Source of the DNA: a virus
Reading direction: 5' to 3' (one strand)
Virus record (IMG/VR): IMGVR_UViG_3300045988_177924
Length of the DNA stretch: 64,000 nt
The notes under the pieces were generated by a model that was not told the origin of the DNA, did no database searches, and saw only the letters and a list, made by a program, of their open reading frames with translations. The position numbers and the translations under genes were made by a program. How positions within the stretch are numbered: position 1 is the stretch's first letter; each line of letters begins with the position of its first letter. Below, in pieces: positions 2,497-56,200 of this stretch.

Positions 2497-2573
2497 GGGG
2501 TTGCTCCTTATTTATATTTGTATTTTTTAAGCGAGAAAACCCGTTGGTCTTTAGCCAATGGGATGAATCGCTA

Positions 2574-3836
2574 TTAATCTTGACTGTTAATGATATTTTG
2601 ACTTATATATAAGCAACTTCTTCTCGCTGAGATTCTGTTACAGTTTGATAATTTTGGTGTCTTATAGCCTCTCGGCATATAACTAAAATCTATCTGATTA
2701 TTAAATATGTCCATAAGTATAGCAAATCCAGAACTCATCTTTCCTTTGATGAAATACTCTTTTCCAAAGTATTTGACCTTATCAAATTTTCTAAATCCTT
2801 GAATCTTACCTACAGGGATTTTTTGTTCTCCACGAACGCCCCTAGTTAATTGATAATTTCCTTTGGATACTCTTCGCTTTTGATAGATAGTGTCATTGAG
2901 CGTGAACTCTTTACCACCGGAAGAGATGACACAAGCATCTATGAAATGGTCTTTTGGTAGATGGAGACTTTCACGATTCGTCTTAGTAACAAATCCAAAA
3001 GTCTCAATAGCGTCAGGATAGACCTTAAGCAACCGACTTCTGATGATACTCATGTGAGTTGCATACTTTAAATTCATCTTTTTAGGTTTTTTGTTTAGTG
3101 CAATTTTCCCACTATGGACTCCGGTGTGGCAATCTTCACATAAGGTTATGAGATTGCTCTCATCATCTGTTCCACTTTGACTTTTAAAGACGATGTGATG
3201 AACCTCTAATCTGGTATGTTTCTTACCGCAAATCTGGCAGGTATAACCATCACGATTAAGTATGGCTTCTCGTCTACTGGCCCATTCATAGTTAAAACCC
3301 TTTTGATACCCCCAGTGTTTGACCTTCTCCAAAATCAAACTTGGATTTTTCATCAGATGTGTATCAAACTGACTGACTTCAAGTACAATCTTTGAAATTG
3401 GGAGTATCTTTTTGCAGAACTCGATTTCATCAATGTGTGCTTGTACCTTGTGCTTGACGGAAGGTGGAAGCCTGTTTAATTTGGTAGAGTTATTACGGTT
3501 GAGGAATCTTGACTCACGATAACGAGTCTTTCTGTTGCGTCTATTCCTACGAGCCTGTCTCCTACTATCCATCTTCGACTTGATATCGTCTCGAAGTTTT
3601 ACATTTGACTGATACAAAACTTTGTTATTGCCAACACAAGCAGTACCAATATATTTTGAGCCTGTATCTTGTCCTAAGACAACGTCTTGTGTATACTCAG
3701 TGGAGTCATAAGTAAGTTGAATTGTAAATGGACATCTCTTTTTGACTTTAGCTTTGCCATCTTTGAGAAGCAATCTTGCGACCACATTCTCGCATGGCAT
3801 TAGCGGTTTCCCACTTTTTGAAATTACATAAACCAT
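2574..3836 (-). CDS. iscB: IscB, OMEGA-family RNA-guided RuvC/HNH nuclease (420 aa)
   Basis: All IscB modules are recognisable in order:
- PLMP domain: MVYVISKSGKPLMP...PFTIQLTY
- RuvC-I: VLGQDTGSKYIG
- Arg-rich bridge helix: RRQARRNRRNRKTRYRESRF
- RuvC-II: IVLEVSQFD
- HNH: CQICGKK..EVHHIV..NLITLCEDCH
- RuvC-III: KDHFIDACVIS
Catalytic residues appear intact. Confidence 0.9.
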   Translation of the reverse strand: MVYVISKSGKPLMPCENVVARLLLKDGKAKVKKRCPFTIQLTYDSTEYTQDVVLGQDTGSKYIGTACVGNNKVLYQSNVKLRDDIKSKMDSRRQARRNRRNRKTRYRESRFLNRNNSTKLNRLPPSVKHKVQAHIDEIEFCKKILPISKIVLEVSQFDTHLMKNPSLILEKVKHWGYQKGFNYEWASRREAILNRDGYTCQICGKKHTRLEVHHIVFKSQSGTDDESNLITLCEDCHTGVHSGKIALNKKPKKMNLKYATHMSIIRSRLLKVYPDAIETFGFVTKTNRESLHLPKDHFIDACVISSGGKEFTLNDTIYQKRRVSKGNYQLTRGVRGEQKIPVGKIQGFRKFDKVKYFGKEYFIKGKMSSGFAILMDIFNNQIDFSYMPRGYKTPKLSNCNRISARRSCLYISQNIINSQD

Positions 3837-4162
3837 AAATAAGTCTCCTTAAAATTCTCACTCTTAATGAGTGGTAACGCCTATCTTAACTCTGTTACCA
3901 AGTTAAGAATTGGTCTTCCTTTCGTCAATGTTAATTAGGCTTTTGCGACATACACACAGGGCTTTTCTTACTCCAACCCAACTTAATGTATATCGACAGA
4001 GCGACGGTCTAAGGCGACAACCGAAGGTGTCATGACCTAACTAACGTAGCTCTCATTTCTGAGGCTGAGACTTGTGAACTATTTAATGGAAGCCTACGAG
4101 TTTTTAGCTCATAGGTGGCTCACTAGGATTATTACATCACTTTACTCCTTTATATCTTATAT
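3837..4162 (-). ncRNA. putative omega RNA (HEARO-type guide RNA) of IscB
   Basis: About 325-nt ORF-free leader directly 5' of iscB, the canonical omega-RNA position.
Predicted helices on the minus strand: cctatgag/ctcgtagg, ggtaac/gttacc, cactc/gagtg, and a UUCG-loop hairpin.
A consensus promoter places the TSS near 4162. The exact 5' guide/scaffold boundary is not determinable by eye. Confidence 0.7.
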
Positions 4163-4168
4163 ATTAAT

Positions 4169-4209
4169 ATTATACACTATTTGATTATAAAAGTCAACTG
4201 TAGATGACA
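4169..4209 (-). promoter_or_regulatory. promoter for omega RNA-iscB: TGTCAT-N6-TTGACT-N17-TATAAT
   Basis: rc of 4192-4197 = TTGACT, 17-nt spacer, rc of 4169-4174 = TATAAT. The upstream TGTCAT (rc of 4204-4209) is shared with four other promoters in the window. Confidence 0.75.
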
Positions 4210-4286
4210 TAATTCTTTAAGATTCTGTGAGTATGTGTGGTAGTTTTTCTTTGGGAAAAATATTTTTTATTTTTTTTTGTATTTTC

Positions 4287-4327
4287 TGTCATTGGTAGTT
4301 GACAAATGGTATTTTTCTGTGTATAAT
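4287..4327 (+). promoter_or_regulatory. consensus promoter TGTCAT-N6-TTGACA-N17-TATAAT firing rightward into the AT tract
   Basis: TTGACA at 4299-4304, 17-nt spacer, TATAAT at 4322-4327. The transcript would begin with GGGGTGGGTGGTCGGG. Confidence 0.75.
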
Positions 4328-4357
4328 AGGGGTGGGTGGTCGGGAGAATGAGATCAC

Positions 4358-4558
4358 TATTTTTTATTATATTATATTTTAATATATATTTAACATATTA
4401 TATGTTATAATGATAGAATATATGTTATATGATCATATATTATATATATTTAATTATATTTTAATATATTATTACTTTTTTAATATATAATAATATTAAT
4501 TATAATTAATATTATTTATATTAATATTTATAATTATTATATATTTATATATAAATAA
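4358..4558. other. about 200-bp tract of 96% A+T (candidate DNA-unwinding element)
   Basis: I counted only 8 G/C in 201 nt, and 4441-4558 holds a single C. No ORF and no repeat-spacer periodicity. Confidence 0.8.
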
Positions 4559-4594
4559 GCAAGATCTTCTTATCTATACCCGCCCACCACCCAA

Positions 4595-4635
4595 ATTATA
4601 ACAACTTTGAAAAGAAAAGTCAACCTACAATGACA
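4595..4635 (-). promoter_or_regulatory. consensus promoter TGTCAT-N6-TTGACT-N17-TATAAT firing leftward into the AT tract
   Basis: rc of 4618-4623 = TTGACT, 17-nt spacer, rc of 4595-4600 = TATAAT. The transcript would begin with GGGTGGTGGGCGGG. It mirrors the 4287-4327 promoter. Confidence 0.75.
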
Positions 4636-4669
4636 CAAAAATAAAAAAAATTTTAAAACTTTACAAAAA

Positions 4670-4710
4670 TGTCATCATATGTTGATATTAAATATGATAT
4701 GTGTTATAAT
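4670..4710 (+). promoter_or_regulatory. promoter for the rightward gene block: TGTCAT-N6-TTGATA-N17-TATAAT
   Basis: TTGATA at 4682-4687, 17-nt spacer, TATAAT at 4705-4710. The first gene starts at 4785. Confidence 0.7.
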
Positions 4711-4724
4711 ATAAATATAATAAG

Positions 4725-4748
4725 AAGAAAGAGAATATCCTCTTTCTT
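4725..4748 (+). promoter_or_regulatory. 9-bp perfect hairpin in the 5' leader of the 4785 gene
   Basis: aagaaagag (4725-4733) pairs with ctctttctt (4740-4748), with a 6-nt loop. Function unknown (RNA stability, attenuation or a protein site). Confidence 0.35.
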
Positions 4749-4784
4749 TAGGAATCTATATCACTTCTAAGGAACTACATTATT

Positions 4785-5354
4785 ATGAGCAAACACTTAC
4801 ACCTAATTGTAGAAGACAATGTAATTTTTAATTGTGCGGAGACAATAACCAAAAAACTTAATGAAAAATACAACACTAATTATTCTGTAATCGATTTTTA
4901 CGAAAACAAATTCCAAACGGTCTGTGGTCAAGATCATGATTTCGAAATCATTGATTGTATCAAAAGTCTGAATGTACCTGACTTGCGGATTCGAGAAGGC
5001 GCGGAAGATTTTCTTGATACCATCACAGAACTTGCGGAGAACTGTAAGCTCACTATCGAGATTGAAAGTTATGCTGAAGCTTATAGAACGGCAACAATGG
5101 AAGATGTAGAAAAAATTCGTCTTTTTGGAGACTCGGTTATATATATAGGCAGCGATTACCGTATGTGCGCTAATTATTTAGCTGATATGGTCGTGTTATT
5201 TACTGGCGATGTTGAACATCAGCGTAACCGTGTTGAAGGTAATGAGGAAGATTTTTATATCATACATAACTTTAACGACTTAGAAGCGTTGGTGAAGTTT
5301 TATGCCGATTACCCTGAATTTGTGGGGAACCCTTCGTCGATTATTGAGGAGTAA
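4785..5354 (+). CDS. hypothetical protein, 189 aa
   Basis: ORF track. First gene after the 4670-4710 promoter. Confidence 0.65.
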   Translation: MSKHLHLIVEDNVIFNCAETITKKLNEKYNTNYSVIDFYENKFQTVCGQDHDFEIIDCIKSLNVPDLRIREGAEDFLDTITELAENCKLTIEIESYAEAYRTATMEDVEKIRLFGDSVIYIGSDYRMCANYLADMVVLFTGDVEHQRNRVEGNEEDFYIIHNFNDLEALVKFYADYPEFVGNPSSIIEE

Positions 5355-5906: not shown

Positions 5907-7541
5907 GTGCCTAATTTACAAAACCTATATCAAGTTTTTAAACTTAAATCTAGTTTTATTGTAGAGAACAACTTAAATATAGTTAATTATTCAAAATCTA
6001 AGGCAGCTCGCGATGGAGCGCTGGTATCAATTGGTGATAATCTGGTTTTTCAACAAATCAGAAAATATTATAATGATACCAGAAGTCATCGAGAGATTTT
6101 TAACGATGTCCAACAATTTCGTCGCGCTATAAGAGCCGCGAAGAGAGAGGGACGAACTAAGGAAGCTGGTATTCTTAATCGGTTTTTGACAGATGCGTTG
6201 TTTGTTAAAGATATTATTAACGTTGAAGTCGTGACCAAGAAAGAATATAAAGAATTGGCCAAGAATGGTTTTGACGTTAACGGTATTCATTATGTGAGAT
6301 TTTGTTGTGGTTCGGGACAAATGAGGCGCAACACTATTACCTTTATTAACGAAGCTCTTTATGACACCTTGTACAAAAACCTGATGTGCGGGTTGGACAC
6401 CAAGATTTCAGAAATGAATTTGGCGAAATATCATGCGTATTTTGCGTTGGCGTTTTCAAGTGTTATGTGGGTGCGAACTCCGAGGGTATGCGTAGTTAAG
6501 GATTTCTTTAATGTGGTGAAGGATCAATCGGTTGATTGGATTTGCCCCAATCCCGAGACTGGGAAAAAACAGATTAAAGAAAGAATAATGGATATCGAGT
6601 TAAACTGCGCTGATGGACAGGGGTTGATAGATCCTAAGTTTGCGGCGCTGTGGGCAGAAGATATGAATTTATCATATACGCCGTCGTCGTTCGTTGTCCG
6701 TAGCGTTTTTGTGAAGGGGTGCTTGGTTCCATTTGATTTTCGAGAATTTGGAGCTGTACACGGTATTGACTCAATTCGTGACCGGTGGGGAATCTCGCAT
6801 AGGTTAGAGGATATTGATGTTATATTGAGTGAATCTCAATTCAAGATGTATAAATATTATGTATCTTGGTATGAATATCAAAAGTATGTAGATGCGGCTG
6901 GTATTCAGTGGGGAGTTGCGAGATATAATAAAAAGTACGATGACGAATATGTGCTGGCTAATTATCAATATCTGCAAGTGTTGGATATCAATAAGGATGA
7001 TATTCTGGAATTGATTCAACCGACGATTGATTGGATTAAAAAGATTTGTTCAGGTGACCAATTGTATACAATGCTGTATATGTTGGGTTGCAAGGGCGAA
7101 CAGGTCAGTTTTAAAGAGCTGTACAATGGAGCGCAAAGCACGGCGTTGAGGGCTATTATTAAAAACCCGATAATGTTGGAAGACGCTCATGTACAGAAGA
7201 AAATATATCGCAATATTGCTGAGACGATAAACAAGGCGAAGATTGGTAAGATATGGGTGAGAGGAAATTATAGTTTTATGATTTCCGATCCCGTGGCACA
7301 GTGCCAATCGGCGCTTGGGTTGGAACCGGTGGGGTTAATTGGGCCTGACCAAGTGTATTCAAATTTCTGGAGGCAGCGAAGTGTGGGTTGTGTTGACCTG
7401 TGCCGCAGCCCGATGATTGACTCGCACGAACACAACCCTTGTAAAGTAGTATCGTCCGAAGATATGGATTATTGGTATCAATATATTAAGAGTGGAATCA
7501 TTTATAGTATATATGATACTTCAACATTACGACACTCCGAT
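5907..7541 (+). CDS. YonO / RdRP-family single-subunit two-barrel RNA polymerase, exon 1
   Basis: Family-type motifs CADGQGLID, VVRSVFVKGCLV (R..KG) and CRSPMIDSH. The ORF runs into an in-frame stop 4 codons after the proposed 5' splice site. Exon 1 ends ...RHSD with a U at 7541. Confidence 0.7.
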
Positions 7542-8587
7542 AGTGACTTAACATAATGGGTCCGTCGGATGGTAACATTCGATTGCTACTCAGTGAACCT
7601 GGCAATCCAGGGTGTGGGATAAAATCCTGCTAACAGTAAAAATCGTAAGTTTTGTTGGTCGGCCTGGAGAGAAATGCCGACAGAAGAAAAAGAATTCTAT
7701 GTCTATGAATGGATAAACAAAGACACGGGAGAGATTTTCTACGTAGGGAAAGGTAGTGGTTATCGTTGGAAACGTAAAACCGCCAGCTCTCGAAACAGAT
7801 ATTTCAATCGTTATGTCCAAAAATATCCAAATTGTGAACCTCGAAAAGTTTATGAAAATTTAACTGAAGAAGAGGCTTACAACAAAGAGCGAGAATTAAT
7901 AGCCGAATATAAAGCACAAGGCGTTCAGCTGGTTAACTTCGACGAAGGAGGACGACGAGGTGGACGCTCACCTGGAAAGCTAAATGGTATGTATGGGAAA
8001 ACACATACACCAGAAGCTCGAAAGAAAATAAGCGAAGCCAATTCCGATGGCCACAATGCGGGAATCAACAATACTCAATATGGAATTAGTCCAAGAGAGC
8101 GTATGAGTCCTGCGATATACGAGCAGTGGCGTACGGCACACAAGAAAGTAGTTGGTGCAGCAAATCCAAATTGCCATCATACAATTTTGTTTAATCTTGA
8201 ACATGAGATTGTGAAAGAGTTTGAATATACGATTGAATGTGCGCATTTTTTGGAAGAGCAAGAGCATTTAACTAATGGAATTGAGAATATTCGCTCGCAA
8301 ATCAAATATTACAGCAATACAGGACACGTTATGTTCAATAAGTATTATGTAAAAGTGATTCGGCCAACAAAACAAGACAATACTGTGCCAAGCCTCGTGA
8401 AAGAGGAAGGTTAAACGACTACCGAAAGCATATCAAGCGAGAAAAACGTTTGAAAAGAAGCAAGTAGGGTAGAGAACGGTGCAAATCCGGTTCTCGAAGT
8501 GCTGAGGGAACTATGAACGGTAAAAGAACATAGCTCTAAGAGATAGTCTACTCCCCTAATAAATATCGGGAAACCGAGGGTATAAAG
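7542..8587 (+). mobile_element. group I intron (1046 nt) carrying a GIY-YIG homing endonuclease ORF
   Basis: The 5' exon ends in U (7541) and the intron ends in G (8587). P1 pairs exon tccgaU (7536-7541) with the internal guide Gtcgga (7564-7569), with the U-G wobble at the splice site. Splicing restores one frame and creates the motif DVDGD. ORF-free structured arms lie at 7542-7673 and 8415-8587. Confidence 0.8.
7674..8414 (+). CDS. GIY-YIG homing endonuclease (I-TevI-like) with NUMOD3-type motif
   Basis: GIY-YIG region FYVYEW..GEIFYVGKGSGYRWKRK, the NUMOD3-like NGMYGKTHTPEARKKISEAN, and its own RBS GGAGAG. It lies wholly inside the intron. Confidence 0.85.
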   Translation: MPTEEKEFYVYEWINKDTGEIFYVGKGSGYRWKRKTASSRNRYFNRYVQKYPNCEPRKVYENLTEEEAYNKERELIAEYKAQGVQLVNFDEGGRRGGRSPGKLNGMYGKTHTPEARKKISEANSDGHNAGINNTQYGISPRERMSPAIYEQWRTAHKKVVGAANPNCHHTILFNLEHEIVKEFEYTIECAHFLEEQEHLTNGIENIRSQIKYYSNTGHVMFNKYYVKVIRPTKQDNTVPSLVKEEG

Positions 8588-9820
8588 GTTGACGGAGATG
8601 TAGTAATGTCCACGGATAATAAAATCTTTATCAAGGGTGCGCAAAAATGGCACAATGTCATCACATATGAGAAAGGTGCGGTGCCGGTTCAGAAGATTTG
8701 TTTAAAGAATTCAATCGCGACCGATATTCGCGGCTTGGGAACTGGGGTTGGAGGTTTTTCTAACTGCGCAACAATAATGCACGCAATGAAGGGAATTTTC
8801 CAAAAAGACACCCAAAAAGAACAAAGAGACGAACTCACTTTGCGTATTAAATTACTTCGAGAAATTGTTGGTCAAGAAATTGATAGAATTAAAGGAACAG
8901 CCGCGCCGGAGCTGCCAAAAGAGTGGAAAAAATTCATCCGAATTAATGATGATGACACTGATGCGGTTAAGGCTGATAAATATAAAAGAAATTCGATGGT
9001 TATTTCTAAAAAACCCTATTTCTTTAGATATTTATATCCAGAGCTAAACCAACAGTTCAAGCAATACGAAAACAGTTACAATATGGCGTCCAAAAACATG
9101 TTTGGTATTAAATTTAAAAAGCTTTTAACCAAACCTAATAAGTCAGAAGACGAGATGAATTTGGTACGCCGTTATCAAAAGTATTCGCCGCTAATCACCG
9201 CACCGTGCATAATGAATATATTGTGTAAGGAATTTGAAAATGTCGATTTTGATATTAATTTCAATAAAAACGCGGTAAGTATGTTGCCTACCTTTGAGGA
9301 TTGTTTTGAATTTGATCAAGAACGGTTTGCTATTGTTAAAGATTTGTATCGCAAATATACAGCGCGTAAACAAGTAAAAACCTTGGAGAGTATTGTTGAT
9401 AATATTGATTTACCGAATCGTGACGAATATGATGAGATTAGATTCGGGGCAATGACATTTATCAGAACGGAAATTCAAGAGGCGATTGAGTCTGCGTCGT
9501 TCAGTGGCAAAGAATTGCTTTACTACTGCCATTGTTTATCAAAAGAATACAAACAGTTTAATTGGGATTTTGCTTGGGACATTTTAGACGAAAGCGTGTT
9601 GGATTTAATCCCTCGTGGAATTGTTCAGATTCCCGTAAAAAATGAGACTGGATTTGAATACCTTGGTAATCGATACACTTTACAAGTAATTCACGAAGAT
9701 CGCGTCAGCGAGTTGTGTGATGATGACGATTGGAATCAAACGGCGTGGGAAGAAATTTTGGGGCAAGATTTAGATTTTGACTTCGATGCTGATAACTTAT
9801 TTGGAGGCGATGACGTATGA
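8588..9820 (+). CDS. YonO / RdRP-family RNA polymerase, exon 2
   Basis: The reading frame is open from 8540 and reads ...VDGDVVMSTDNK. Joined to exon 1 it gives HS-DVDGD-VV, the DxDGD metal-binding motif, 45 aa after the RSP motif. The spliced product is about 955 aa. Confidence 0.7.
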   Translation, partial: VDGDVVMSTDNKIFIKGAQKWHNVITYEKGAVPVQKICLKNSIATDIRGLGTGVGGFSNCATIMHAMKGIFQKDTQKEQRDELTLRIKLLREIVGQEIDRIKGTAAPELPKEWKKFIRINDDDTDAVKADKYKRNSMVISKKPYFFRYLYPELNQQFKQYENSYNMASKNMFGIKFKKLLTKPNKSEDEMNLVRRYQKYSPLITAPCIMNILCKEFENVDFDINFNKNAVSMLPTFEDCFEFDQERFAIVKDLYRKYTARKQVKTLESIVDNIDLPNRDEYDEIRFGAMTFIRTEIQEAIESASFSGKELLYYCHCLSKEYKQFNWDFAWDILDESVLDLIPRGIVQIPVKNETGFEYLGNRYTLQVIHEDRVSELCDDDDWNQTAWEEILGQDLDFDFDADNLFGGDDV

Positions 9821-41777: not shown

Positions 41778-44700
41778 ATGGAAGGAATGGACTATACTCC
41801 CATTTTAACAAGCGTTGGTTCGGCTGATAGTGCAATTATTGCGATGCTCGAAGATTCGCAACTTACCGCAGAGAATTTAGGGACGACAGCCGCATATTTA
41901 ACAGACACTTTAAAAACAACAACTGATAAACAGTTAGAGGCTGCAGTTCAACAACAAAAAATCACACAAGCCCAACAAAAGGCGCTTGCTTGGATTCGAG
42001 ATAATTTTGAACAATTTCCTGGTGAAGTAAGGAAAACTCTTAAAGACACTTTTTCGAGTTTGTCAACACAGATGGCCAAATTGCCTCCCGCTGTAGTCCA
42101 CGAAGCTACTCGAACGTTAGTGTTGCCGTTGGTTGATAAAATTATCGGTAGCTTAAACGATGAGGAAATTGGCCGCTTGGCTATGGCGAAGATAAATCAG
42201 GGTTTAGGTGTGGACAACTTAAACAAGTACTCTGCTGGTTATAGAGCAATCTTTGAACAAATTAACAAAGAGTACAAATCGGTTTTAAAAGATTCTACTG
42301 ACCTTAGTGAACAATTTAAAAAAGCCAAGAAAGCACTTGCTAACACCACTTTAGCGGACTTTTCATCCACGAGTGGCTCGCCAGCGGTGAATAGAGAAAT
42401 TGCCACATTGCTAGATATGGCAAAAAAGGCCAAACAACAAAAAAATCCCGATTACAATCCAACGATAACCAACAAGGATGTTACTGGTAGTGCTCGTAGA
42501 GTAACAAAGGTCGCAGAAAAAATACAACAAAACGCTTTCTCGACGCAGAAAGAAGCGGAAAGTATTATTCTTCAATATTTTGATCCCAAAAAATTGACTC
42601 AAGAGGGGAAAAATCGTGCCAAGCAAGCCGCGGAATATGCTGCTAATATGCAAAAAGCGGGATATGGAGTAAGCTTCGCCCAAGATAACGGTTCTCAAGA
42701 GATTAAAGTTATTGTTTATGACAAAAATAGTGTCAATGCTTTCGATAGAAAGGGAAGGGTAAATCGTCAAAATGCCGCCATTGCTTCTTTTGCGGTTGGG
42801 GGCTTAGATAAGCGAAATGACGATTATGTAATTGATCAAGCCAAGAGAGTGAAAGTGTCGGATGCCGAGGCTCAAAAATTTGTTGAGATGTCTCAACATG
42901 CTCCCAAAACAATCGCAAGTGCGCGTAAACGTATTGGGGACATTAAAAACGAAACTGTTCACAAATCAACCTCAAAGTTTGATCGACAAGACAACCTGTA
43001 TGGTGTTGGCGCAGATAAGGCGTTAGTTGAAAGCAGAACTCGTTTTGAGAATGAGGCGAAACGTTTAGCAAAATTTGAGAAAGATCAAGGTTCTACCATG
43101 ACCGAATCGGAACTCGTTAAGTTGTTTTCTCAAATGTTTGTTAGCTTTGCTGGATTTGGGGAGCGGGATATTGGCGTACAAAAGAGTTTACGAGACCAAC
43201 AAATGAAAAACGGTCTCTCAGACGCAGTTATACGAGAATTTAATAAAAACTTTTCTTGGTTACCTTTGGTTGGCTCAATGGGTGAGGAAGATTCTGGCCA
43301 CTATCGACTGTGGGGCGCCAAAGAAATGAAGGACAAAATGGCCCTCGTAACTCGTAAAATACAAGGTCGTGATATCCAGCCTTACGCTAAACAAGGTAAA
43401 CCCGAACGTGTACAAAACATAGAAGTTGACGTCAACCGTTTGTTTGATCAAGTTGACGATTTGCTTAATAGCGCAGACGACAAAAAACGCGAGGCGGCGC
43501 AACTCCTTGATAAAAATCGTGACTTAATCGAGGGTTTGGTTGATGGTATGGCCCTGGTGTCGAAAGATCAAATTCAAAATTTGGACACAATTCGAGAGGG
43601 CGTATCGGTTAAGATTTCTAAAGCCGATTTGTTCAAATACGGGTTAAAAGGCAAGAAGAAGAAAAGTGCCGAAAACAGACGAAAAGCCTATCAAAAACTT
43701 TTGGCGGCCGAAGGCCGAGAGGCCACGGATGATAATGTTGATTTTTATATTGATCCTGAGACAGGAGATGTAACCTTAACCGGGAAAGAGGTGGTTAGGG
43801 CGCATACGGGTACAAAAGCCAATAGTGCCTACGGTAACTTACGTGTCGTTTATCGTGAAGTAGTTCCAGAAGTTATTAAGGCTATTTCCACAATAACAGG
43901 AGTTGAATTAATGCCCGAAAAAGACTCGCGCGCGACTGTGGTGTCAGCAAGAGAAGAAACCAGTTCAAGAAATATCGGACCGCTTGTAACTAGGGCTATA
44001 GACAACGCGATAAATGAACTAGATAAGAGTCAGATTGAAGCCAGTGTGAACAAACTTGGTACCACAAACCTGTCGACCAACATTGGACAAGCCTTAGTTG
44101 ACGTTTTGTTGAAAAAATTGAGCTTTAGCGATGCTTTGGACAAGTACGTGGGCTCAAACGTATCGGCTCGTACCAAATTTACGGGTGAAACCTTATATCT
44201 GTTAGATGAGTTGACGGGCGGAAAAAATGGATATGAAATTGTTGATGGGAAATTACAAACTAAGGCCCTTGCGTCTAGCTTTACTGATGTTGTTGGCGCA
44301 CGTTATGGTGAATATGAACCAAGAGGTGCGGCCAGCTTGCCAACAAACTGGGAAGTAGAAGATCTTGAACGTTCGGCTCGTGCAGCCGGTGTGGAAATAA
44401 CCCCCGAAAATAGTGATTTTTTACGCACTGTTCAACTTGTTGCTTTTGGAGCAACCGCAAACGATATCGAAGAAAAAAAGAAACTTATACGAGACTATAA
44501 TGAACATATTGAGCGTCAAGCTCAACTAATAGGTTCGCGAGCGGGGTTAAACCCTGATTATATCAATCGAAATGCGGGTGTTAACACAATCGTTGTTGGC
44601 TCAAAAGACATATATGGCAATCAAGCACACTTTATTGACATAAACGCACTTCGTCGCACTGAGAAATTAGACAACGGACAAAGTGATCCCGAACAAAGAG

Positions 44701-47700
44701 GTGAAACCATTTGGGGTAAACTTGATGAGCAGTTGCAATCTATAGACCAAACTCAAGCAAAAATTTTGGTTGATTTGGGCGCGGATATGGGAGAAGCGCG
44801 ATATTTCGATTTGGGCAAATACACTGATGAAATTGGAGATTATAACGAAAGTTTAGAAAGTTTACTTGACGCGGTTCGAACGGGGAAAACAGCGTCCGAA
44901 AAGAAAGACTTGCTAACCGCTGTCTTAAAGGCAGAGGCTTACAACTTTGAAAACACTGGCGGGGCTGTTAATGAACAATTCTTAGCAAAAATGGCTCGCC
45001 ACCAAGAAGAGGCAAGGAAAGCGGCTCAAGAGAGATATGATAAGAAATATAAGAAACGTTTAGCGTACTCTACGTTTTATGGCGAAAATACCAATATTGT
45101 AGCGACAGATACTACGAATGAAGTTGACGCCTTGCAAGAACGCATGAAGGATAGCGGTACTTATGTCGATAAAGAACATATTAGAGCAAGTGTCGCGCTT
45201 GGGTTGAATGCCTATAAGGGTGATGATAATGATGCTTTTGTAAAAAACTTAGCGCAATATTTGCAACTTTTTGCAGAACAGGGGCAAGACAAAGCTATCG
45301 AATCAGCTCTCGCCAATCAAAACTTTAAGAATTTTGCCGAAATGGTCGATTTTGCGACCAATATTTTTACCACGGGAACCTCAGAACATGAGAATTTTTA
45401 TGGCGGCACGAATCCTATTTTAAGTCGCGGTGTTGAAGCTGTATTGGGGAGGCAGCCTTATAGCCAAGCCATTAACTTACAATACGGAGGGTTGGTCTTT
45501 GGTAAAGAGGGCCTAGGAACAAACGTAATCGAAAGTAACCGTGGTCTCAACAAATTGATCATGGGGGATTTTGACGGTGATAAATTATACACCGCTTTAG
45601 TTCAACTTCGACAGGCTGCCCAGCTAATAGGCGCTACTTCCGAACAGTTTGGCTGGTTAGACGAAACCTTGGAAAGAGTCAAACGTTATAATGAATTTTT
45701 ATATAGAGTTATAGGAAAGAATATTCCGGCTATTACCTCATCCGACGCCGACTCATCGGTAATTCTTGATTTGGCGAAAAATCAAGTGTTAAACGATAAG
45801 CAAATGGCAATAGTGCGTTCCTATCAAAACCAGGCGAAAGACAAAACGGGTAACTGGTCCAACGTTGCAAAAGGTGCTCGAAATGTTTTAGAGTTACAAA
45901 AGTTGGGTACGGGTGCTGTTGTAGGCGGAGATTTGAATTCAACTATCGACTTTATTAAGGGGTCGTTTGTTTTTGAAGCACTAGAACAAGCTGAGCAAAA
46001 TGCGATTTCTTCTAAGAAACTTTGGGACGTTGCAATCCAAGATATGCAAACCACGCTTGGTTCCGATTTGGATAAAGTTGATGAACAAACGTTCGCTGAG
46101 CAACTTGACAAGTCTTTTAATATCGCGATTAACAAAGTTATTGATGAAGTTTACAAAAATAAAGCAAATGTGAACGATGTGATTCAAGCCGGTGCGGAAC
46201 AAGGAATCTATAAAGACAACAAATTAGAGGCCTGGCGTTCCCAACGAATATTGGGCACTTTGGCGATGAGCAAAAACGTTTCAGCGTACAAAGCTTTGGA
46301 AGAGTCTGGTATTTCCCCAGGTGACTTGGAAGCAATTGCTCAAATTGTTAAACCGGGCCGGAATTGGGAAAGTTTCAGAGGTCAACAAGGTGACTTTCAA
46401 AGTCAGTTACTGGACCAACTGAATCAAGGCGCTTTTAACCAATTTGGCTTTAGTGTAGACACATTAAAGGCATTTGGCGGCAATTTAGATGATGATTTTT
46501 TAGCGCAGGCTAAACAAGCACACGGGCGATTCCGTGAAGAAACAGGTCCTACAGGGCTTGGTACGGCAGCTGGAGAACTTATCAAAGCTATTAACAAATT
46601 AACGGTAGCAGAGACAAAAGTTGATAAGACAGGATTCGACCCTAAAATTGTTAGTATATTAGAAGAAATTCGAGACTTGCTTGCTAAACAAGGCCGAGGC
46701 GGTCTTAACGGACGTTATGGGCAGACCTATATGACACCAACGGGTATTGTCTCGAGTTTAAATCCTTCTTCGATCGATGAATCGGCTTGGGGTTATTTAC
46801 AGGGAAGAATGTTAGGGTTTAAGGGTTCAAATATCGATTGGACAAAACTAAATGTCAAAGAAAAGGCAAAACAGTTTGGCTACGCGGATATAGAACAATT
46901 TAAACAAGATAGAGAAGGTGTAGTTAGTACGTTTATAGGAACACTAGCTCACGCATTTTCTGAAGGTGAGATTAAACAGGATCCTGAAATTTTTAAACAA
47001 GCAACAAAGGATTTTACACAAGCTTTATCAATGCTGTTTGATAAAAAGGATGTCGACAAATATTTACTTGTTGCAAATGAATATGCACAAAGGGGTTATA
47101 ACGCATACGACCGATTAGCTGGACCAGACGCGTATCGTGCGGCGGAAGAACGGGTGCGATTAAATGAGAATTCTGATGTGGTAAAAGGTAAGACTGACGC
47201 CATTTACACAAGTAAGCGTATGGCTGAAAGTGGTCAAGAATATCAAGTGTTTAATGTTGTTGACTTTAAAAACAAGGCTAAAGTTGATGCTAATAGTATA
47301 GAACAGGTCTTGATTTATGTCGAGATGTACCGCCGTATTAAACAAGATTTGGATAAATTGGTGCGAGAAATTGGAGAAGACGCTGCTTTGGAAAAAATGA
47401 GCAAGCAGACACTCTTGTCGGCTGATACATTACGCCAATTACACGAATCGTTGGATGTTAGTGCTCAAATTGTCCAAAATTATCAAGGGAAAACCAAAGT
47501 GTATGATGTCGCAAATGTTCCCAGAGACATTGCGCAAGCTCTGGTGGAGGGGCGTTCTTTAACGGCAGAACAACAAAAGATTATAAATAATGCTGCCACA
47601 GCGTCGTCGCCACTGACACAAACCATGTCGCCTGATTTCCAAAAAAAATATTATAAGCTCACCGGTGAAATTTTTGGGGTAGATGGGTATAGTAAAAATA

Positions 47701-50700
47701 CGGTTGATTATGAGAAAAAAATAGCTGAACAAAAAGCTCTTGAGGAACAATTAAATAAAGTTCAAACAGAGCAAGGCGAAGAATCAACCGTGTTTAAGAA
47801 ACTCACACAATATTACAACAATCTTCTCGAAGAAATTAAGGCTCTGGAAGAAATTCGCAAACGACAGGTTCAAGAATTAAAACTTACCAAAGGTATGAAG
47901 GGGTCGGTGACACGCACGACTCGCAATCAAGTTCAACAACTTCTCGAAACGGGAGATTTACACTTTGGGTATGAAAAAATTCTAAAAGATGATGAGAAAC
48001 AGCGCTTACTTGCCCAAAAGCAACGAGAAGCCGTATTGAACCAGTACAAACGCTATAACGATCAGATTGCTAAGACGGAAAAGGACATGTTGGTTTTGGA
48101 CAAACAATCTAGAACCACACCGAGTAAACTCGAAAGAGGAATTCAAGCCGATAGAGGACAAATTGATATACTAAAGGCTGAACTCAAAGAGTTAGTTGAA
48201 AAACGTAATCTGCTTGTTGAAAACAATAAATTGACACAGGCAGAAACCGCCGAAGCCGATGCTCAACTTCAAACCAAGAGAGAATTAAACAGGCTTAAGG
48301 TTGCTGGAATGGCCAAGGGCGCCGGGAATTGGTTAGATGTTATTGGAAGTGGTGTTAAAAATACCATTACGAGAATGTTCGATTACAATGGTGTATATCG
48401 TATTCTGAATCGTATAACACAAGGTTTGCGTCAGCTTGTGCAACAGGTAAATGAGCTTGATGTTGCAATGTTCAACTTGCAAGTTGTTAGTGGTGACAGT
48501 CGTCAAGAAGTTTCAGCATTAATTAATGATTATGGCAAACTTGCTCAACAATTACACACTACTACAACTCAAATTGCTGCTTCGGCAAACGAGTGGCTTA
48601 GACAAGGTTATGAAGCAGGACAGGCTAACGAGCTGATCAAAGCTTCAACATATTTGAGCAAATTAGGCATGATTGAGGCTGGCCAAGCTACAACTTATTT
48701 GACGTCTATGATCAAGGGCTTCAAATTAGAGGCTGCCGACGCAGTTAATATTGTTGACAAGTTAACCGCTGTTGATATGGAAGCGGCTGTTAGCGCTGGT
48801 GGTATTGCTGCAGCAATGCAAAACGTTGCAACAACTGCTCAGTTAGCGGGGTTATCCATTGATAAAACAATTGGTTACTTGTCAACCATGATTGAAGTTA
48901 CCCAACGAGACCCTTCCTCTATGGGTATGGCTTTGCGCACGGTTTTAGCGCGTTATGGTAATGTTAAAGCAGGGACTTTCACAAATATGACGGGTATAGA
49001 AAGTTCCGATGCTGATTTAGAAAATGTTAACGATATTGAAAAAGTTTTAGGCAAAGTAGGAATACGCATTCGCGAAAATGCACAAGAGTTTAGAGATTTC
49101 GGAGACGTAATTGATGAACTGAGTGAAAAGTGGCAAAAATACGATTCTGTTACTAAAAACGCGATTGCTACTGCTATGGCTGGTGTTCGTCAACGTGAAT
49201 CTTTCTTGGTTTTAATGGAAAACAAAGATAGGGCTGACGAGTTGGAAGATGTGTCATCTTTATCAAAGGGCACCGCCGACACAAAATATGCTGCTTACCA
49301 ACAGACGTTAATGGCAGCAAAGGCCGATTTACAGACGTCACTACAAAGTTTGGCAAAATCAATACAAGACAGCGGATTACTTATTGCCTTTACCAAGTTG
49401 GCTAATATTTTGATTAAAACGGTTGTTCCTGGGTTTAACGCGCTTGCTTCTATGCTATGGGCGCGAAATTCGTTTAAACTAACAGAACAAATCAAATATA
49501 GTTTAAACCAACGTAAAACAACTTCCGCAGCCTCTCTCGGATTTTTTGCACAAAAAACACAACAAGAAGCATTAAGAAGACAAGAGTGGCAACAGGAGTT
49601 TTATAAAAAGAAAGAGGGCACTAATCAAACGTATGTTGACAGGTTATTGGGGAAAACATCACCCAAGACTGCGCTTTCGTCGTTTACTAATGTGTTGAAT
49701 GATGCGTCTACAGCAGTACGTGGTTTTACGGGTGCCATAAATGGCTCACCGGTTCAGTCCACAACCTCTTCTCAAGCACCATCGAAGACGCCTGTGGTAG
49801 ATCCAAGGCGTCTGGTGTATACCGAGGCCGGCGAGTGGCCTAGTGTAGATGAATACGCCAAAGGTTCTAGGTTTAGACGCCTTAATAGGGCAAAAATTCG
49901 TAAAGATTTACAAAGCGGTCGCATAACCACTGTTGACGCGAGCAATATTAAACAAAAATATAAACAAATAGCAAAAGAAGATCGACAACAAGCCAAAGCA
50001 CTTTTAGGCCAGCAAATTACAGGGAACGTAGCAGGTGCGGTTGGCGCCGGTGTCACCTCTGCATTAACCACGGGGTTTAACCAAGAGGGTTCCGCAGGGG
50101 CGAAGGCGACTGCTGGAGTTACAGCTGGTGCTTTGACAGGTGTTGGTGCATTATTTGGTCCAATGGGAGCGGTTATAGGTTCCACTTTGGGTTCAATATT
50201 GGGACCGGTTTTTGCTAAATTGGTTGACAAAGAAGAAAACGAACGTAAACAACGTGCAGAAGCAGCTCAGAAACAATTGGACGCTTTAAATTCATTAAAC
50301 AATACATTTGATGAAGTGCATGATTATACCGAGAAAGAGTATTTAACTTCAGAGGCCATTTTAGCTATTAAAGAGCGAGTTGACTCTATTGACGAGCAGA
50401 TGGCTACAAGTGGTTTAAGTTTCGACGATTATCTTAAACAAGCTGCTACCCAACTTGGATTGGGTGAGGATTTTCAAACTATAGAAGATATTCGTGAGCT
50501 ATTAACCGCTGCTGATGAGAAAACTCGTCAAAAGGCACAAGAGGTGTTTGACTTAGCCCAAAGTATGGCCAAAGTACAAACAACGCAAGAGTCCAAGGCA
50601 GTGTCGGATATGTCATATGATGAGAAGAGAGTTTATTGGCGGGCATTAGACAAAGAGTATATTAAACAAGCGTTTATTACATCTGGTCTGGAGCAAATGT

Positions 50701-53272: not shown

Positions 53273-56200
53273 ATGAGTTATAAATTAACCCAAACGGGGC
53301 AAAAAGTTCAAGAACTGCTCAATCAGATGCAGAACGATGGGCAATCACAAGTCACTGATGCGGTGTTGTATTCTGAGCAGGCTCTCAATGAAAAAGAACA
53401 AGCACAAGCAAGGAAAAATATAGGGGCCGCTGCTGAAAATCAAATTCCCACCGGAGCGGTGTTGTATTCCCAACAACAAAACCTCACAGGTGACCAACAA
53501 GCGCAAGCGAGAACTAATATTGGTGTGCCTAACAAGGTAAGTGAATTAGAAAATGATGCTCACTACATTACCGAAAGCCAAGTGCCCATTGCTCTTCCTC
53601 AAAAAACTGGAGCTATACAAAGTGGTGTCTTACCCACATCTGGGTGGAGCACCTTTGACAAAGAGTGGGTACAAACCACACTACCTGCAAATAGAAGGTG
53701 GCATGATGTGGCCTATGGCGACGGTAAATTTGTCGCGGTTGCAAGTGATAGTGACAAAGGTGCATACTCAACTGATGGTATAAGTTGGACAGAAATGAGT
53801 ATGCCTGCAAACCGTGATTGGTACAGCGTAACATACGGTAACGGTAAGTTTGTTGCGGTCGCACTTGGAACAGATAAAGGTGCATACTCTACCGATGGTA
53901 TAAACTGGACAGAATTCACAATGCCCGCAAGCCGTGATTGGCGAAGCGTAACCTATGGCGACGGCACGTTTGTTACAGTAGCACATAATAGTTCCGTGGG
54001 CGCATACTCGCCTGACGGCATCACTTGGACTACAACGACTTTGCCCGCAAATCGATATTGGTACAGTGTAACCTATGGCAACGGAAAGTTTGTTGCGGTC
54101 GCAGAAAATTACAATAGTAGCGCGTGTGATAAAGGGGCATGTTCTAATGACGGAATAAATTGGGTTGAAGTTACTTTACCCGCACGCCAACGGTGGCGGT
54201 GTGTAGCCTATGGCAGTGGTAAATTTGTTGCGATGGGGCTAGATTCTAGATACGGAGCATACTCAACTGATGGCATCAATTGGGGGCGAATGTCTTTGTC
54301 TGCAAGCCGTAGTTGGCTCAATATAACATATGGCGATGGTAGATTCGTGTCGCTGGCGAGTAGTAGCGAAAAAGGTGCATACTCTACTGACGGCATAAAT
54401 TGGGTTGAATTTACTTTGCCTTCGACGGAATTTTGGAGTGGTGTAACCTACGGCAATGACAAGTTTGTAGCCGTGGCGTCACAGACCAACAAAGGGGCAA
54501 GTGGCCCAAAAGTAACCTATTTAATTACCGACACTTTCATAACCGCCAACAGTGATATCCTTATGGAACTCACAGATGAAGGCGGAGTAAAGTCCTATTC
54601 AATGGAAGCAGGCAAGATAACGGTTATCCGCGACACAGTGCCTACACAGCCTATCCCGTACACCTACAAGGTCAAGCAGACGAACGCAAGCGGGCAGTTT
54701 ACTTTGGTAAACCACTATGTGCCCCAAAAGGTAAGCGAATTCGAAAACGATGCGCATTATGTCACCCAAAACCAGGTGCCAGTTGCTCTTCCTCAAAAAA
54801 CTGGTGTAATACAAAGTGGTGTCTTACCAACAACCGGGTGGAGTCCGTTTGATGGAGACTGGCAAGACACAACGATGCCTTGGGAGCAACCCTGGAACGA
54901 TGTGGCCTATGGCGATGGCAAATTTGTCGCTATAGCCGAACAAACATCACGCGGAGCTTATTCTGAAGATGGTATAACATGGAAACAAATGAACATGCCA
55001 GTTTCGGCCTATTGGAGCAGTATAGCTTATGGTAACGGGAAATTTGTTGCTGTTTCGTACAATCATTCAACAGTGAGTGCTTATTCGCTCGACGGTGTAA
55101 ATTGGACTCAAACAACGATGCCTGCGAGCGCCAACTGGTGTAGCGTGATTTATGGGGCGGATAAATTTGTTGCGGTTGCCAATCCAAGCGATCGTGCGGC
55201 ATACTCTTTAGACGGCATCACTTGGGTTGAGACAACGATGCCATCTAATTCTCCTTGGCTCGACATCGCATATGGTAATAATAAATTTATTGTAGTTAGT
55301 TATGAAGGGGGTAATTTAGCTTACTCAAACGATGGAATCACTTGGGAACAAACCACCATGTTTCCATATGCCGGCTGGAGAAGCGTTGCTTATGGCAATG
55401 GCGTATTTGTAGCTGTTGAACGTGACAGTAATAATGCGGCCTATTCTTCCGACGGGATCAACTGGACGATGACAAAATTGCCAGCAAGCGGGTTTTGGGG
55501 GCATGTGGTCTATGGTAATGGTTTGTTTGTGGCAACCATAGGAGATGGCTCTGCCGCCGCGTATTCTCGCGATGGTATTAATTGGACTTCGTTAGGTAAA
55601 ACAACTAGGGATTATTGGGATGTGGCCTATGGTGATGGCAAATTTGTTGCTGTGTTTTATGGCCAAGAGGGGGCATATTTAAAAATTGCTCCTGGGGTTG
55701 TGTACACTATTCGTGATAATTCGATTACAGAGACTAGTGATGTGTTAATGGAAGTGTCAGACAGTGGACAGATTCAAGCACACGGAATTTCAAAATATAA
55801 CATCACTATTATTCGTGACACAGAGCCCACAGCTTCAATTCCATACACTTACAAAGTTAAGGAGACAAATAATCAAGGGCAGTTTACCATTGTTAATAAC
55901 TATTTGCCAGACATCCCCACAAAGGTGAGTCAATTAGAAAATGATGCCCACTATATTACCGAATCTCAGGTTCCTACTAAAATTAGCCAATTCGCGAATG
56001 ATATGGATTATGCCACTGTAGGGCAAATACCGACAAAAGTGAGCCAACTTAATAACGATCAGAATTTCACTGATAACATTGGTACCATCACCCAAATTAA
56101 AATTAACGGCAAAGTTAAAAATCCACAACCTAGTGGTCTCATCGATTTGGGCAATATTACACCAGAGCCTACGGATTGGACAACGGTGCCTATCACTACG

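What the first reader, a model, noticed from the sequence alone, without database searches (positions are those of the whole stretch)
4250..4680. Convergent consensus promoters with G-run leaders flanking a 96% A+T core: candidate transcription-activated origin
Two ~100-bp arms (about 4250-4345 and 4581-4680) form an imperfect inverted repeat. Each arm has a T-rich upstream stretch, TGTCATTG(G)TAG(G)TTGAC, a 17-nt spacer, TATAAT, and then a G-run block (GGGGTGGGTGGTCGGG / GGGTGGTGGGCGGG, near-G-quadruplex spacing) and an A/G-rich ...GAGATC/AGATC segment.

The two promoters fire toward each other into a 201-bp tract with only 8 G/C.

The element sits exactly at the strand-switch between the leftward and rightward gene blocks.

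Promoter plus G-rich non-template strand plus AT-rich unwinding element recalls the T7 primary origin and R-loop/G4-primed origins (ColE1, the mitochondrial CSBII logic).

Alternatives are a dsRNA/antisense-generating locus or a transcriptional-collision insulator.
Basis: partly seen in the sequence, partly recalled or inferred. Interest (0 to 1): 0.7.

Follow-up and report, generated by a model that had tools for sequence, protein, structure and literature searches.

The report
Twin inward promoters flanking AT-rich tract
At the point where an uncultured gut phage's two gene blocks diverge, two consensus host-type promoters with conserved G-rich starts fire towards each other into a 201-bp, 96% A+T tract; it is real and conserved, and it looks most like a transcription-primed replication origin, but that function is not shown.

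Summary
The region holds four near-consensus sigma-70/sigma-A promoters (0.05 expected by chance). Two face outward and serve the two gene blocks. Two face inward, and each starts a run of four G-tracts. Between them lies a 201-bp tract with 8 G/C, by far the most A+T-rich and least stable DNA in the 64 kb.

The layout is conserved in related phages carrying a YonO-type RNA polymerase, down to about 50% protein identity. The promoters and G-runs are kept, while the core keeps only its A+T-richness.

New facts cut both ways:
- The G-run leader occurs in about ten phage sequence families. It is almost absent from 596 Gb of bacterial genomes.
- Outside the YonO phages it occurs without an extreme A+T tract.
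- Each inward promoter is co-oriented with the far-side operon.
- One family has a single arm and a second site in the genome.
- Only two-tetrad quadruplexes are possible.

Best reading (about 0.4): a phage T4 oriF-type origin (promoter plus unwinding element), doubled head-to-head. Main rival (about 0.3): interleaved upstream early promoters with antisense leaders. An assembly or terminus artefact is essentially excluded. No experiment bears on function.

The parts
4169..4197 (-). P_L, the outward promoter (TTGACT-17-TATAAT, 11/12) for the leftward block. In this window it drives the IscB omega-RNA.
   Evidence: orientation
4193..4208 (.). GTCA-N8-TGAC palindrome overlapping the -35 of P_L; operator-like.
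   Evidence: the same motif is present at all four promoters and in families B and C
4256..4287 (+). T-rich stretch upstream of the left inward promoter, resembling an UP element.
4288..4303 (.). GTCATTGGTAGTTGAC palindrome overlapping the -35 of the left inward promoter.
4299..4327 (+). Left inward promoter, TTGACA-17-TATAAT (12/12). It fires rightward into the core.
4329..4344 (+). Left G-run, GGGGTGGGTGGTCGGG, on the non-template strand across the predicted start site.
   Evidence: It has the second-highest absolute G4Hunter score in the window (1.9). It is the 16-mer on the + strand that most favours an RNA:DNA hybrid over the duplex. It is 94% identical in family B.
4335..4365 (+). Weak hairpin (GGUGGUC / GAUCACU) followed by U6, a possible attenuator about 35 nt into the rightward transcript.
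   Evidence: not conserved in other families
4358..4558 (.). A+T core of 201 bp with 8 G/C; candidate DNA unwinding element.
   Evidence: Its length and sequence vary among relatives: 112 bp are deleted in L005, and it is only about 55-58% alignable to family B. It holds no ORF of note and no iterons.
4403..4411 (+). TGTTATAAT, resembling an extended -10 element, inside the core. It is kept in L005, L007 and L009.
   Evidence: significance unknown
4579..4592 (-). Right G-run, GGGTGGTGGGCGGG, on the non-template strand of the leftward transcript.
   Evidence: It is the second most hybrid-favouring 16-mer on the - strand.
4595..4623 (-). Right inward promoter, TTGACT-17-TATAAT (11/12, with TG before the -10). 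It fires leftward into the core.
4619..4634 (.). GTCATTGTAGGTTGAC palindrome (read on the - strand) overlapping the -35 of the right inward promoter.
4671..4686 (.). GTCATCATATGTTGAT palindrome-like site overlapping the -35 of P_R.
4682..4710 (+). P_R, the outward promoter (TTGATA-17-TATAAT, 11/12) for the rightward block: a 189-aa ORF, a nucleotide kinase, the YonO-type RNA polymerase, and then the structural genes.
4725..4748 (+). 10-bp hairpin in the 5' leader of the P_R transcript.

Best explanation
The 4169-4710 region is the early control hub of a virulent siphovirus-like phage that encodes a YonO-type RNA polymerase. Inside it, the two inward promoters plus the shared A+T core most likely form a transcription-primed origin of replication. 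This would be the T4 oriF/oriG design (promoter plus downstream unwinding element) doubled head-to-head.

Proposed mechanism:
1. Host RNA polymerase starts at each inward promoter. This step is inferred from the consensus sequences only.
2. The first 14-16 transcribed bases are G-rich, which gives the RNA:DNA hybrid most favoured over the duplex in the whole window. This was computed.
3. The transcript runs into the 201-bp tract, which is the easiest DNA to open. This was computed.
4. A persistent R-loop forms there. This is inferred.
5. The RNA 3' end primes leading-strand synthesis in the direction of transcription, and the displaced strand admits helicase and primase. This is inferred from T4.
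6. Because the two units converge on one unwinding element, the two primed leading strands leave in opposite directions. That would give bidirectional replication co-oriented with both gene blocks. This is inferred.

The GTCA-N8-TGAC sites on all four promoters would let one regulator switch the whole hub.
For: - The promoters are far beyond chance.
- The core is a roughly 7-sd outlier in A+T content and duplex stability, and is unique in 64 kb.
- In the cultured relative PMBT24 the homologous intergenic region holds the only extreme A+T tract found in the parts of its genome that were scanned: 0.945, against at most 0.835 across the whole replication-gene half.
- Promoters and G-runs are conserved in families A, B, C and E (YonO identity 100% down to about 54%), while the core keeps only its composition. 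T4 unwinding elements behave the same way: sequence-nonspecific and replaceable (PMC3016281).
- The G-runs rank first (+ strand) and second (- strand) in the window for hybrid-over-duplex stability.
- Both cumulative skew minima fall inside the element.
- In family D a second copy of the module, with a decayed reverse arm, sits between co-directional genes. That suggests a self-contained unit rather than a by-product of two divergent operons. T4 also has several origins.
Against: - There is no replication data of any kind.
- The skew switch coincides with the switch in gene orientation, so it is not independent evidence.
- The G-run leader also heads ordinary promoter-gene units with only modest A+T enrichment in families G to J, so it is not an origin-specific device.
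- Each inward promoter is co-oriented with the far-side operon, and no convincing terminator separates them.
- Convergent transcription would put positive, not negative, supercoils into the core.
- Inside the core, the computed RNA:DNA hybrids are less stable than the duplex by 1-4 kcal per 16 nt.
- No iterons or DnaA-box-like repeats are present.
- The relative PMBT24 encodes its own primase and DnaB-like helicase, so priming by RNA polymerase is not forced.
- The first genes next to the element are small early genes, a DNA methylase and an HD-domain protein. None is an initiator.
Confidence: 0.4

Rival explanations
1. Interleaved upstream early promoters. Each inward promoter is simply the distal member of a tandem promoter pair for the operon on the far side. 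The left inward promoter and then P_R would serve the rightward genes. The right inward promoter and then P_L would serve the leftward genes. The two long A+U-rich 5' leaders overlap in antisense. Polymerase collision, antisense pairing or a leader-bound factor would then tune or time early expression, as in face-to-face promoter switches. Replication would not be involved.
For: - Orientation fits.
- In nearly every family a same-direction consensus promoter follows the G-run promoter 76-430 bp downstream.
- In families G and H the G-run promoter sits 76-86 bp upstream of a second promoter and a gene, with no extreme A+T tract.
- In family D the single arm and the second site drive genes directly: a collagen-like gene, dUTPase and ribonucleotide reductase.
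- No conserved terminator follows the G-runs.
- All four promoters share one operator-like palindrome.
Against: - It gives no reason for a 200-bp leader held at 96% A+T while its sequence drifts. Other intergenic DNA in the window is at most 75% A+T.
- Placing two equally strong consensus promoters head-on wastes both.
- The promoters next to the genes (P_L, P_R) lack the G-run, which is odd if the G-run serves mRNA function.
- The module recurs between co-directional genes, where a reverse promoter would be useless.
- No repressor or switch genes were found next to it.
Confidence: 0.3
2. A generator of non-coding RNA, or a decoy. The inward promoters would make short G-rich RNAs, or a roughly 260-330-bp A+U-rich double-stranded RNA. 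These would act in trans (sponge, RNase III substrate, defence decoy), or the promoters would simply soak up host RNA polymerase or a regulator.
For: - The left arm has a hairpin plus U6 about 35 nt downstream.
- The region has no coding capacity.
- The motif is phage-specific: dozens of hits in viral contigs, against 3 in 596 Gb of bacterial genomes.
Against: - No conserved RNA structure was found; leader folding z-scores range from -2.2 to +0.8.
- No Rfam family matches.
- Terminator-like features are not conserved across families.
- The distance of the G-run from the -10 element varies by 0-3 nt, so the RNA 5' end is not fixed.
Confidence: 0.12
3. A genome terminus, a packaging site, an assembly junction or a mobile inverted-repeat element.
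For: - Many metagenomic contigs start or end inside the core: L001, L002, L003, L006, L134, L148, L172, L193 and both ends of contig 172055.
- The arms are an inverted repeat.
Against: - Several independent contigs read straight through the core: L004, L005, L007-L010, L183 and this window.
- The break points differ by up to about 120 bp, which looks like coverage failure in extreme A+T DNA rather than a defined end.
- PMBT24 is circularly permuted and packages by headful from a pac site about 9.6 kb away from the homologous region.
- The terminase gene is 9 kb away.
- The element sits at the same locus in phages about 50% diverged, with no target-site duplication.
Confidence: 0.04

Closest known systems
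Phage T4 oriF (uvsY) and oriG (gene 34) R-loop origins (PMC3016281)
   Same: Both have a promoter with a sigma-70-type -10 element followed directly by an A+T-rich unwinding element whose sequence is not conserved. In T4 the transcript is proposed to stay as an R-loop and prime the leading strand in the direction of transcription. More than one such site per genome is possible.
   Different: Here there are two units head-to-head sharing one roughly 200-bp element, where T4 has one promoter and about 50-100 bp. The promoters here are full host consensus, with no MotA box. A conserved four-G-tract block lies at the start site. Function has not been tested.
Phage T7 primary origin (promoters phi1.1A and phi1.1B plus an A+T-rich region; PMC8373140)
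   Same: Promoters fire into an A+T-rich tract, and transcription is needed for initiation.
   Different: In T7 the promoters are tandem, face the same way and are read by the phage RNA polymerase. Here they are convergent and host-type.
Human mitochondrial CSB II primer formation (PMC3488243, PMC4176368) and ColE1 RNA II
   Same: A G-rich non-template strand just downstream of a promoter that gives an unusually stable RNA:DNA hybrid next to a replication start.
   Different: CSB II relies on long G-runs that form a hybrid quadruplex and terminate transcription. Here every variant has one GG tract, only two tetrads are possible, and there is no conserved termination. ColE1 uses a roughly 550-nt folded preprimer, and no such structure is present here.
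Face-to-face promoter switches (coliphage 186 pR/pL, P2 Pe/Pc, pCF10 PQ/PX; PMC5001618 for the concept)
   Same: Strong convergent promoters whose transcripts overlap, each leading into an operon beyond the other.
   Different: Those overlaps are 35-223 bp of ordinary sequence and are paired with repressor genes. Here the overlap is about 330 bp, mostly 96% A+T, in an apparently virulent phage with no adjacent repressor found.

Membership tests
T4 oriF/oriG-type R-loop origin | A promoter active early in infection lies within the minimal origin. | tested here: met
   Met at sequence level only. The two inward promoters score 12/12 and 11/12. Their activity was not measured.
T4 oriF/oriG-type R-loop origin | [quoted passage not shown] | tested here: met
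   The core is 201 bp at 96% A+T and is the least stable DNA in 64 kb. Its sequence and length drift among relatives while the composition is kept.
T4 oriF/oriG-type R-loop origin | A persistent R-loop forms in the unwinding element, the RNA is used as primer, and the fragment drives phage-dependent plasmid replication. | not testable with these tools
   This needs DRIP or S1 mapping and plasmid replication assays.
T7-type origin | The promoters are read by the phage's own RNA polymerase. | tested here: not met
   The promoters are host sigma-70/sigma-A consensus. The promoter used by YonO-type polymerases is unknown (PMC5467207).
CSB II / G-quadruplex-primed origin | A G-run able to form a stable quadruplex of three or more tetrads that stops transcription. 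| tested here: not met
   Nearly every variant has a GG tract. ViennaRNA predicts two-tetrad quadruplexes for most leaders and none for A-left, G and H. Termination signals are not conserved.
ColE1-type RNA II origin | A long folded preprimer RNA. | tested here: not met
   No significant or conserved leader structure was found, and there is no Rfam match.
Iteron or DnaA-box origins (lambda, oriC, SPP1) | Repeated initiator-binding sites next to the A+T-rich region. | tested here: inconclusive
   No iterons were found, only low-complexity repeats. The four GTCA-N8-TGAC palindromes could bind a protein, but each overlaps a -35 element, so they look like operators.
Face-to-face promoter switch (186, P2, pCF10) | Convergent promoters with overlapping transcripts that each lead into an operon. 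| tested here: met
   Orientation and the absence of an intervening strong terminator fit.
Face-to-face promoter switch (186, P2, pCF10) | Adjacent repressor or antirepressor genes that set the switch. | tested here: not met
   The flanking genes are unknown small ORFs, a DNA methylase, an HD-domain protein, a kinase and the RNA polymerase. No repressor domains were found.
Genome terminus, cos or pac site | A fixed end position, proximity to the terminase gene, and ends in virion DNA. | tested here: not met
   Contig break points vary and several contigs read through. The pac site of relative PMBT24 lies 9.6 kb away. The terminase gene is 9 kb away.
MITE-like mobile element | Terminal inverted repeats with target-site duplication, many copies, and presence/absence polymorphism. 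| tested here: not met
   The window has one copy. The element is at the same locus across families A to E. No duplication was seen.

The most novel reading that the evidence does not exclude
A previously undescribed, phage-specific promoter-proximal element: four G-tracts placed 0-3 nt after a consensus -10. It would anchor the nascent RNA on its template. In phages with a YonO-type polymerase it would be paired head-to-head across a long unwinding element, so that host RNA polymerase lays down both leading-strand primers of a bidirectional origin. The origin would then be defined entirely by two promoters, with no initiator protein.
Probability: 0.22. Interest if true: 0.8.

Novelty: new variant of a known kind. 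Interest (0 to 1): 0.6.

Why it matters
Origins of replication are unknown for almost all uncultured gut phages. If this is one, it would be recognisable from sequence alone. It would give a simple initiator-free design for bidirectional initiation, namely two convergent promoter-plus-unwinding-element units.

Independently of that, the G-tract leader is a conserved, phage-specific promoter-proximal motif. It was found in about ten sequence families and is essentially absent from bacterial genomes, and no known function explains it.

The extreme A+T core also explains why assemblies of these phages repeatedly break at this point.

Tried and rejected
- **Near and distant BLAST against 50,697 phage records.** I queried the region, the arms and the family D, G and H leaders. 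Nothing useful came back, so no cultured phage carries the motif.
- **Rfam.** There is no family in 4150-4800 even at E = 10, and none at the G-run sites of 13 related loci.
- **Leader RNA folding.** No significant or conserved structure was found.
- **Terminator scan over 17 representative loci.** Terminator-like features are not conserved.
- **Leader peptides.** GGGAG-N2-ATG recurs in several arms, but the reading frames and peptides are not conserved, so I rejected this.
- **Pairing of the 5' G-run with the downstream C-run.** The two arms of one genome differ in tract order. The constraint therefore acts on each arm alone, not on complementarity.
- **Chi-like, DnaA-box-like, anti-Shine-Dalgarno and tRNA 3'-end complementarity readings of the G-run.** Each fits only some variants, so I dropped them.
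- **Is the G-run the promoter of the YonO-type polymerase?** The SPbeta promoter sequence is not published. The SPbeta region showed no comparable motif. Families F to J show no YonO gene within the fetched flanks. This remains unresolved.
- **A host-promoter feature?** I rejected this: only 3 hits in 596 Gb of bacterial genomes, about as many as expected by chance on a rough hand estimate.
- **Enterocloster phage CB473P3.** It has a G-rich block near the homologous region, but with no consensus promoter in front of it. It is not the same architecture.
- **A rival unwinding element near the replication genes.** None was found in PMBT24.

Full report
**What is there**

- On the + strand, TTGACA-17-TATAAT (4299-4327, 12/12) is followed after one base by GGGGTGGGTGGTCGGG (4329-4344).
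- On the - strand, TTGACT-17-TATAAT (4623-4595, 11/12) is followed after two bases by GGGTGGTGGGCGGG (4592-4579).
- Both promoters have a T-rich upstream stretch and a GTCA-N8-TGAC palindrome over the -35 element. The arms pair as a 40-nt inverted repeat that is 75% complementary.
- Between them, 4358-4558 is 201 bp with 8 G/C.

Two more near-consensus promoters face outward: 4197-4169 (-) and 4682-4710 (+). The layout is therefore P_L (leftward), the left inward promoter (rightward), the A+T core, the right inward promoter (leftward), and P_R (rightward).

**Is it more than chance?**

- Four promoters scoring at least 11/12 with a 17-bp spacer lie in 661 bp. Composition-matched shuffles give a mean of 0.049, and none of 3000 reaches four. 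The whole window has only one other such match, inside a gene.
- The G-run motif occurs nowhere else on either strand.
- The core is the most A+T-rich 200-bp window of the 64 kb: 0.95, against 0.75 for the next and a mean of 0.59 (sd 0.05). It is also the least stable duplex, at -83 against -131.8 (sd 7.3) kcal/mol per 100 bp.
- It has no ORF of note, no iterons, only low-complexity repeats, and no Rfam match.

**Context**

- The window is a phage with no close match among 50,697 phage records.
- The rightward block starts with a 189-aa ORF, a nucleotide kinase and a 549-aa YonO-type single-subunit RNA polymerase. It runs on through a homing endonuclease, an exonuclease, terminase, portal and tail genes.
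- The leftward block holds small early-type genes. In sister contigs it also holds a DNA methylase and an HD-domain protein.
- GC skew changes sign here. The cumulative G-C minimum is at 4177 and the cumulative A-T minimum at 4546. This agrees with an origin but is confounded with gene orientation.

**Artefact or terminus?**

- Several IMG/VR contigs of the same phage begin inside the core, at positions up to about 120 bp apart. One 135-kb contig has the left arm at one end and the right arm at the other.
- Other contigs and this window read straight through.
- The nearest cultured relative, Enterocloster phage PMBT24, is circularly permuted. It packages from a pac site 9.6 kb from its homologous A+T-rich intergenic region.
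- The core therefore breaks assemblies, probably because extreme A+T DNA is poorly covered. It is not a terminus.

**Conservation**

- Loci fetched through the polymerase gene show the same four-promoter layout in family B (L007-L009, 88-89% protein identity) and family C (L010, 83%).
- The motif scan added family E (L183, 54%) and family F (L172, three arms).
- Compared with the window, family B keeps the left G-run at 94% identity and the promoters at 62-76%. The core aligns at only 55-58% with many gaps. A close relative, L005, lacks 112 bp of the core.
- This pattern is purifying selection on the arms and selection only on composition in the core.

**The G-run leader is a wider, phage-specific element**

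- I scanned viral contigs for TTGAC-N18-TATAAT-N0-3-GGGTGG. About 45 of about 105 distinct hits continue with four G-tracts, at least 69% G over 16 nt. A hand estimate from background G content would put that at a few per cent.
- These hits fall into about ten unrelated flank families, A to J.
- A longer version of the pattern found only 3 hits in 596 Gb of bacterial genomes, roughly what chance would give on a rough hand estimate. At least one of the three looks like binned phage DNA.
- Nearly every variant has one GG tract. ViennaRNA predicts two-tetrad quadruplexes for most leaders.
- The offset from the -10 element varies by 0-3 nt. The two arms of one genome differ in tract order. The constraint therefore acts on each arm separately.

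**Facts that cut against a dedicated origin device**

- In families G to J the G-run promoter heads ordinary units. Typically another promoter follows 76-86 bp downstream and then a gene. A+T enrichment there is only +0.04 to +0.18 over background, against +0.10 to +0.35 in families A to F.
- Family D (YonO identity 49-56%) has a single arm, then an A+T tract, then a same-direction promoter.
- Family D also has a second site about 70 kb away, upstream of a collagen-like gene, dUTPase and ribonucleotide reductase. That site has a decayed reverse arm.
- In this window each inward promoter is co-oriented with the far-side operon. Only a weak hairpin plus U6 at the left arm could stop it, and such signals are not conserved.

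**Facts that favour an origin**

[quoted passage not shown] That element can be swapped for other sequence. In it the transcript forms a persistent R-loop that primes leading-strand synthesis one way (PMC3016281).
- The present element is that design twice, sharing one unwinding element. It would therefore launch two leading strands outward, co-oriented with both gene blocks.
- The G-runs are the first-ranked (+ strand) and second-ranked (- strand) 16-mers of the window for RNA:DNA hybrid stability over duplex stability. The nearest-neighbour values used were recalled from Sugimoto et al. 1995.
- In PMBT24 no other tract above 83.5% A+T exists in the half of the genome that holds all the replication genes. 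The homologous intergenic region reaches 94.5%. That region also contains a nested pair of convergent promoter-like sites.
- The second site in family D lies between co-directional genes. That argues the module is self-contained, and T4 likewise has several origins.
- No other known role demands 200 bp held at 96% A+T.

**Objections that remain**

- Convergent transcription overwinds the DNA between the polymerases.
- Hybrids inside the core are computed to be weaker than the duplex.
- Relatives encode primase and helicase.
- No experiment exists.

**Verdict**

| Reading | Probability |
|---|---|
| Twin promoter-plus-unwinding-element origin | about 0.40 |
| Interleaved upstream early promoters with antisense leaders | about 0.30 |
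| Non-coding RNA generator or decoy | about 0.12 |
| Terminus, artefact or mobile element | about 0.04 |
| Unassigned | the remainder |

The first two readings are not mutually exclusive. T7's origin promoters also express genes.

The finding is real, conserved and unusual. Its function needs RNA end mapping, marker-frequency analysis and a plasmid replication assay.

Noticed in passing
window 2513-4123: An IscB nuclease gene (2574-3836, - strand; RRXRR and HNH domains) sits with its omega-RNA (Rfam HEARO, 3910-4123, - strand, 94.6 bits). In sister contigs L004/L086 the same place holds 1342 bp carrying two small ORFs and an N6/N4 DNA methylase. The junction is exactly the 5' end of the HEARO model. 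The would-be guide (reverse complement of about 4124-4140) is therefore the phage's own early leader, transcribed from P_L. The uninterrupted allele exists in L004, which suggests homing.
   Followed up: partly
window 5907-7556: A 549-aa YonO-type single-subunit, two-barrel RNA polymerase. It hits Pfam RdRP and has 29-36% identity to SPbeta YonO and the Enterocloster phage homologues. It is much shorter than SPbeta YonO (about 840 aa). No other near-consensus host promoter lies in the 59 kb downstream.
   Followed up: partly
window 4193-4208, 4288-4303, 4619-4634, 4671-4686: A GTCA-N8-TGAC palindrome overlaps the -35 of all four promoters and is kept in families B and C. It looks like a shared operator for an unidentified regulator.
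   Followed up: partly
window 7674-8414: A NUMOD3-type homing endonuclease gene lies immediately downstream of the RNA polymerase gene.
   Followed up: no
window 4403-4411: TGTTATAAT, resembling an extended -10 element, lies inside the A+T core. It is conserved in L005, L007 and L009, while the surrounding core drifts.
   Followed up: no
window 41778-53105 and 53273-58192: Two giant ORFs of 3775 and 1639 aa lie in the tail region. Their families were not examined.
   Followed up: no
L167 7765-7960, L169 969-1170, L180 (- strand) 934-1135, L168 7151-7330: Family D phages carry a second G-run promoter plus A+T tract about 70 kb from the first, upstream of a collagen-like gene and dUTPase. Its reverse arm has lost the promoter but still pairs with the G-run over two helices of about 9 bp each.
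   Followed up: partly
L163 4033-5559; L183 6694-6813: tRNA genes and an abiF RNA motif (Rfam RF03085) lie a few kb downstream of the element in families D and E.
   Followed up: no
L081 3300-3460 (PMBT24 record about 9100-9260): The cultured relative PMBT24 has a long palindrome with convergent promoter-like sites centred on a hairpin. It is flanked on both sides by tracts of about 95% A+T, but has no G-runs. This is a differently wired version of the same locus.
   Followed up: partly
L101 2050-2200; L124 12400-12600 and 13130-13210: Family H contigs carry CT-rich GCTCGCTCGCT repeat blocks and short promoter-to-terminator units between genes, next to their G-run promoters.
   Followed up: no
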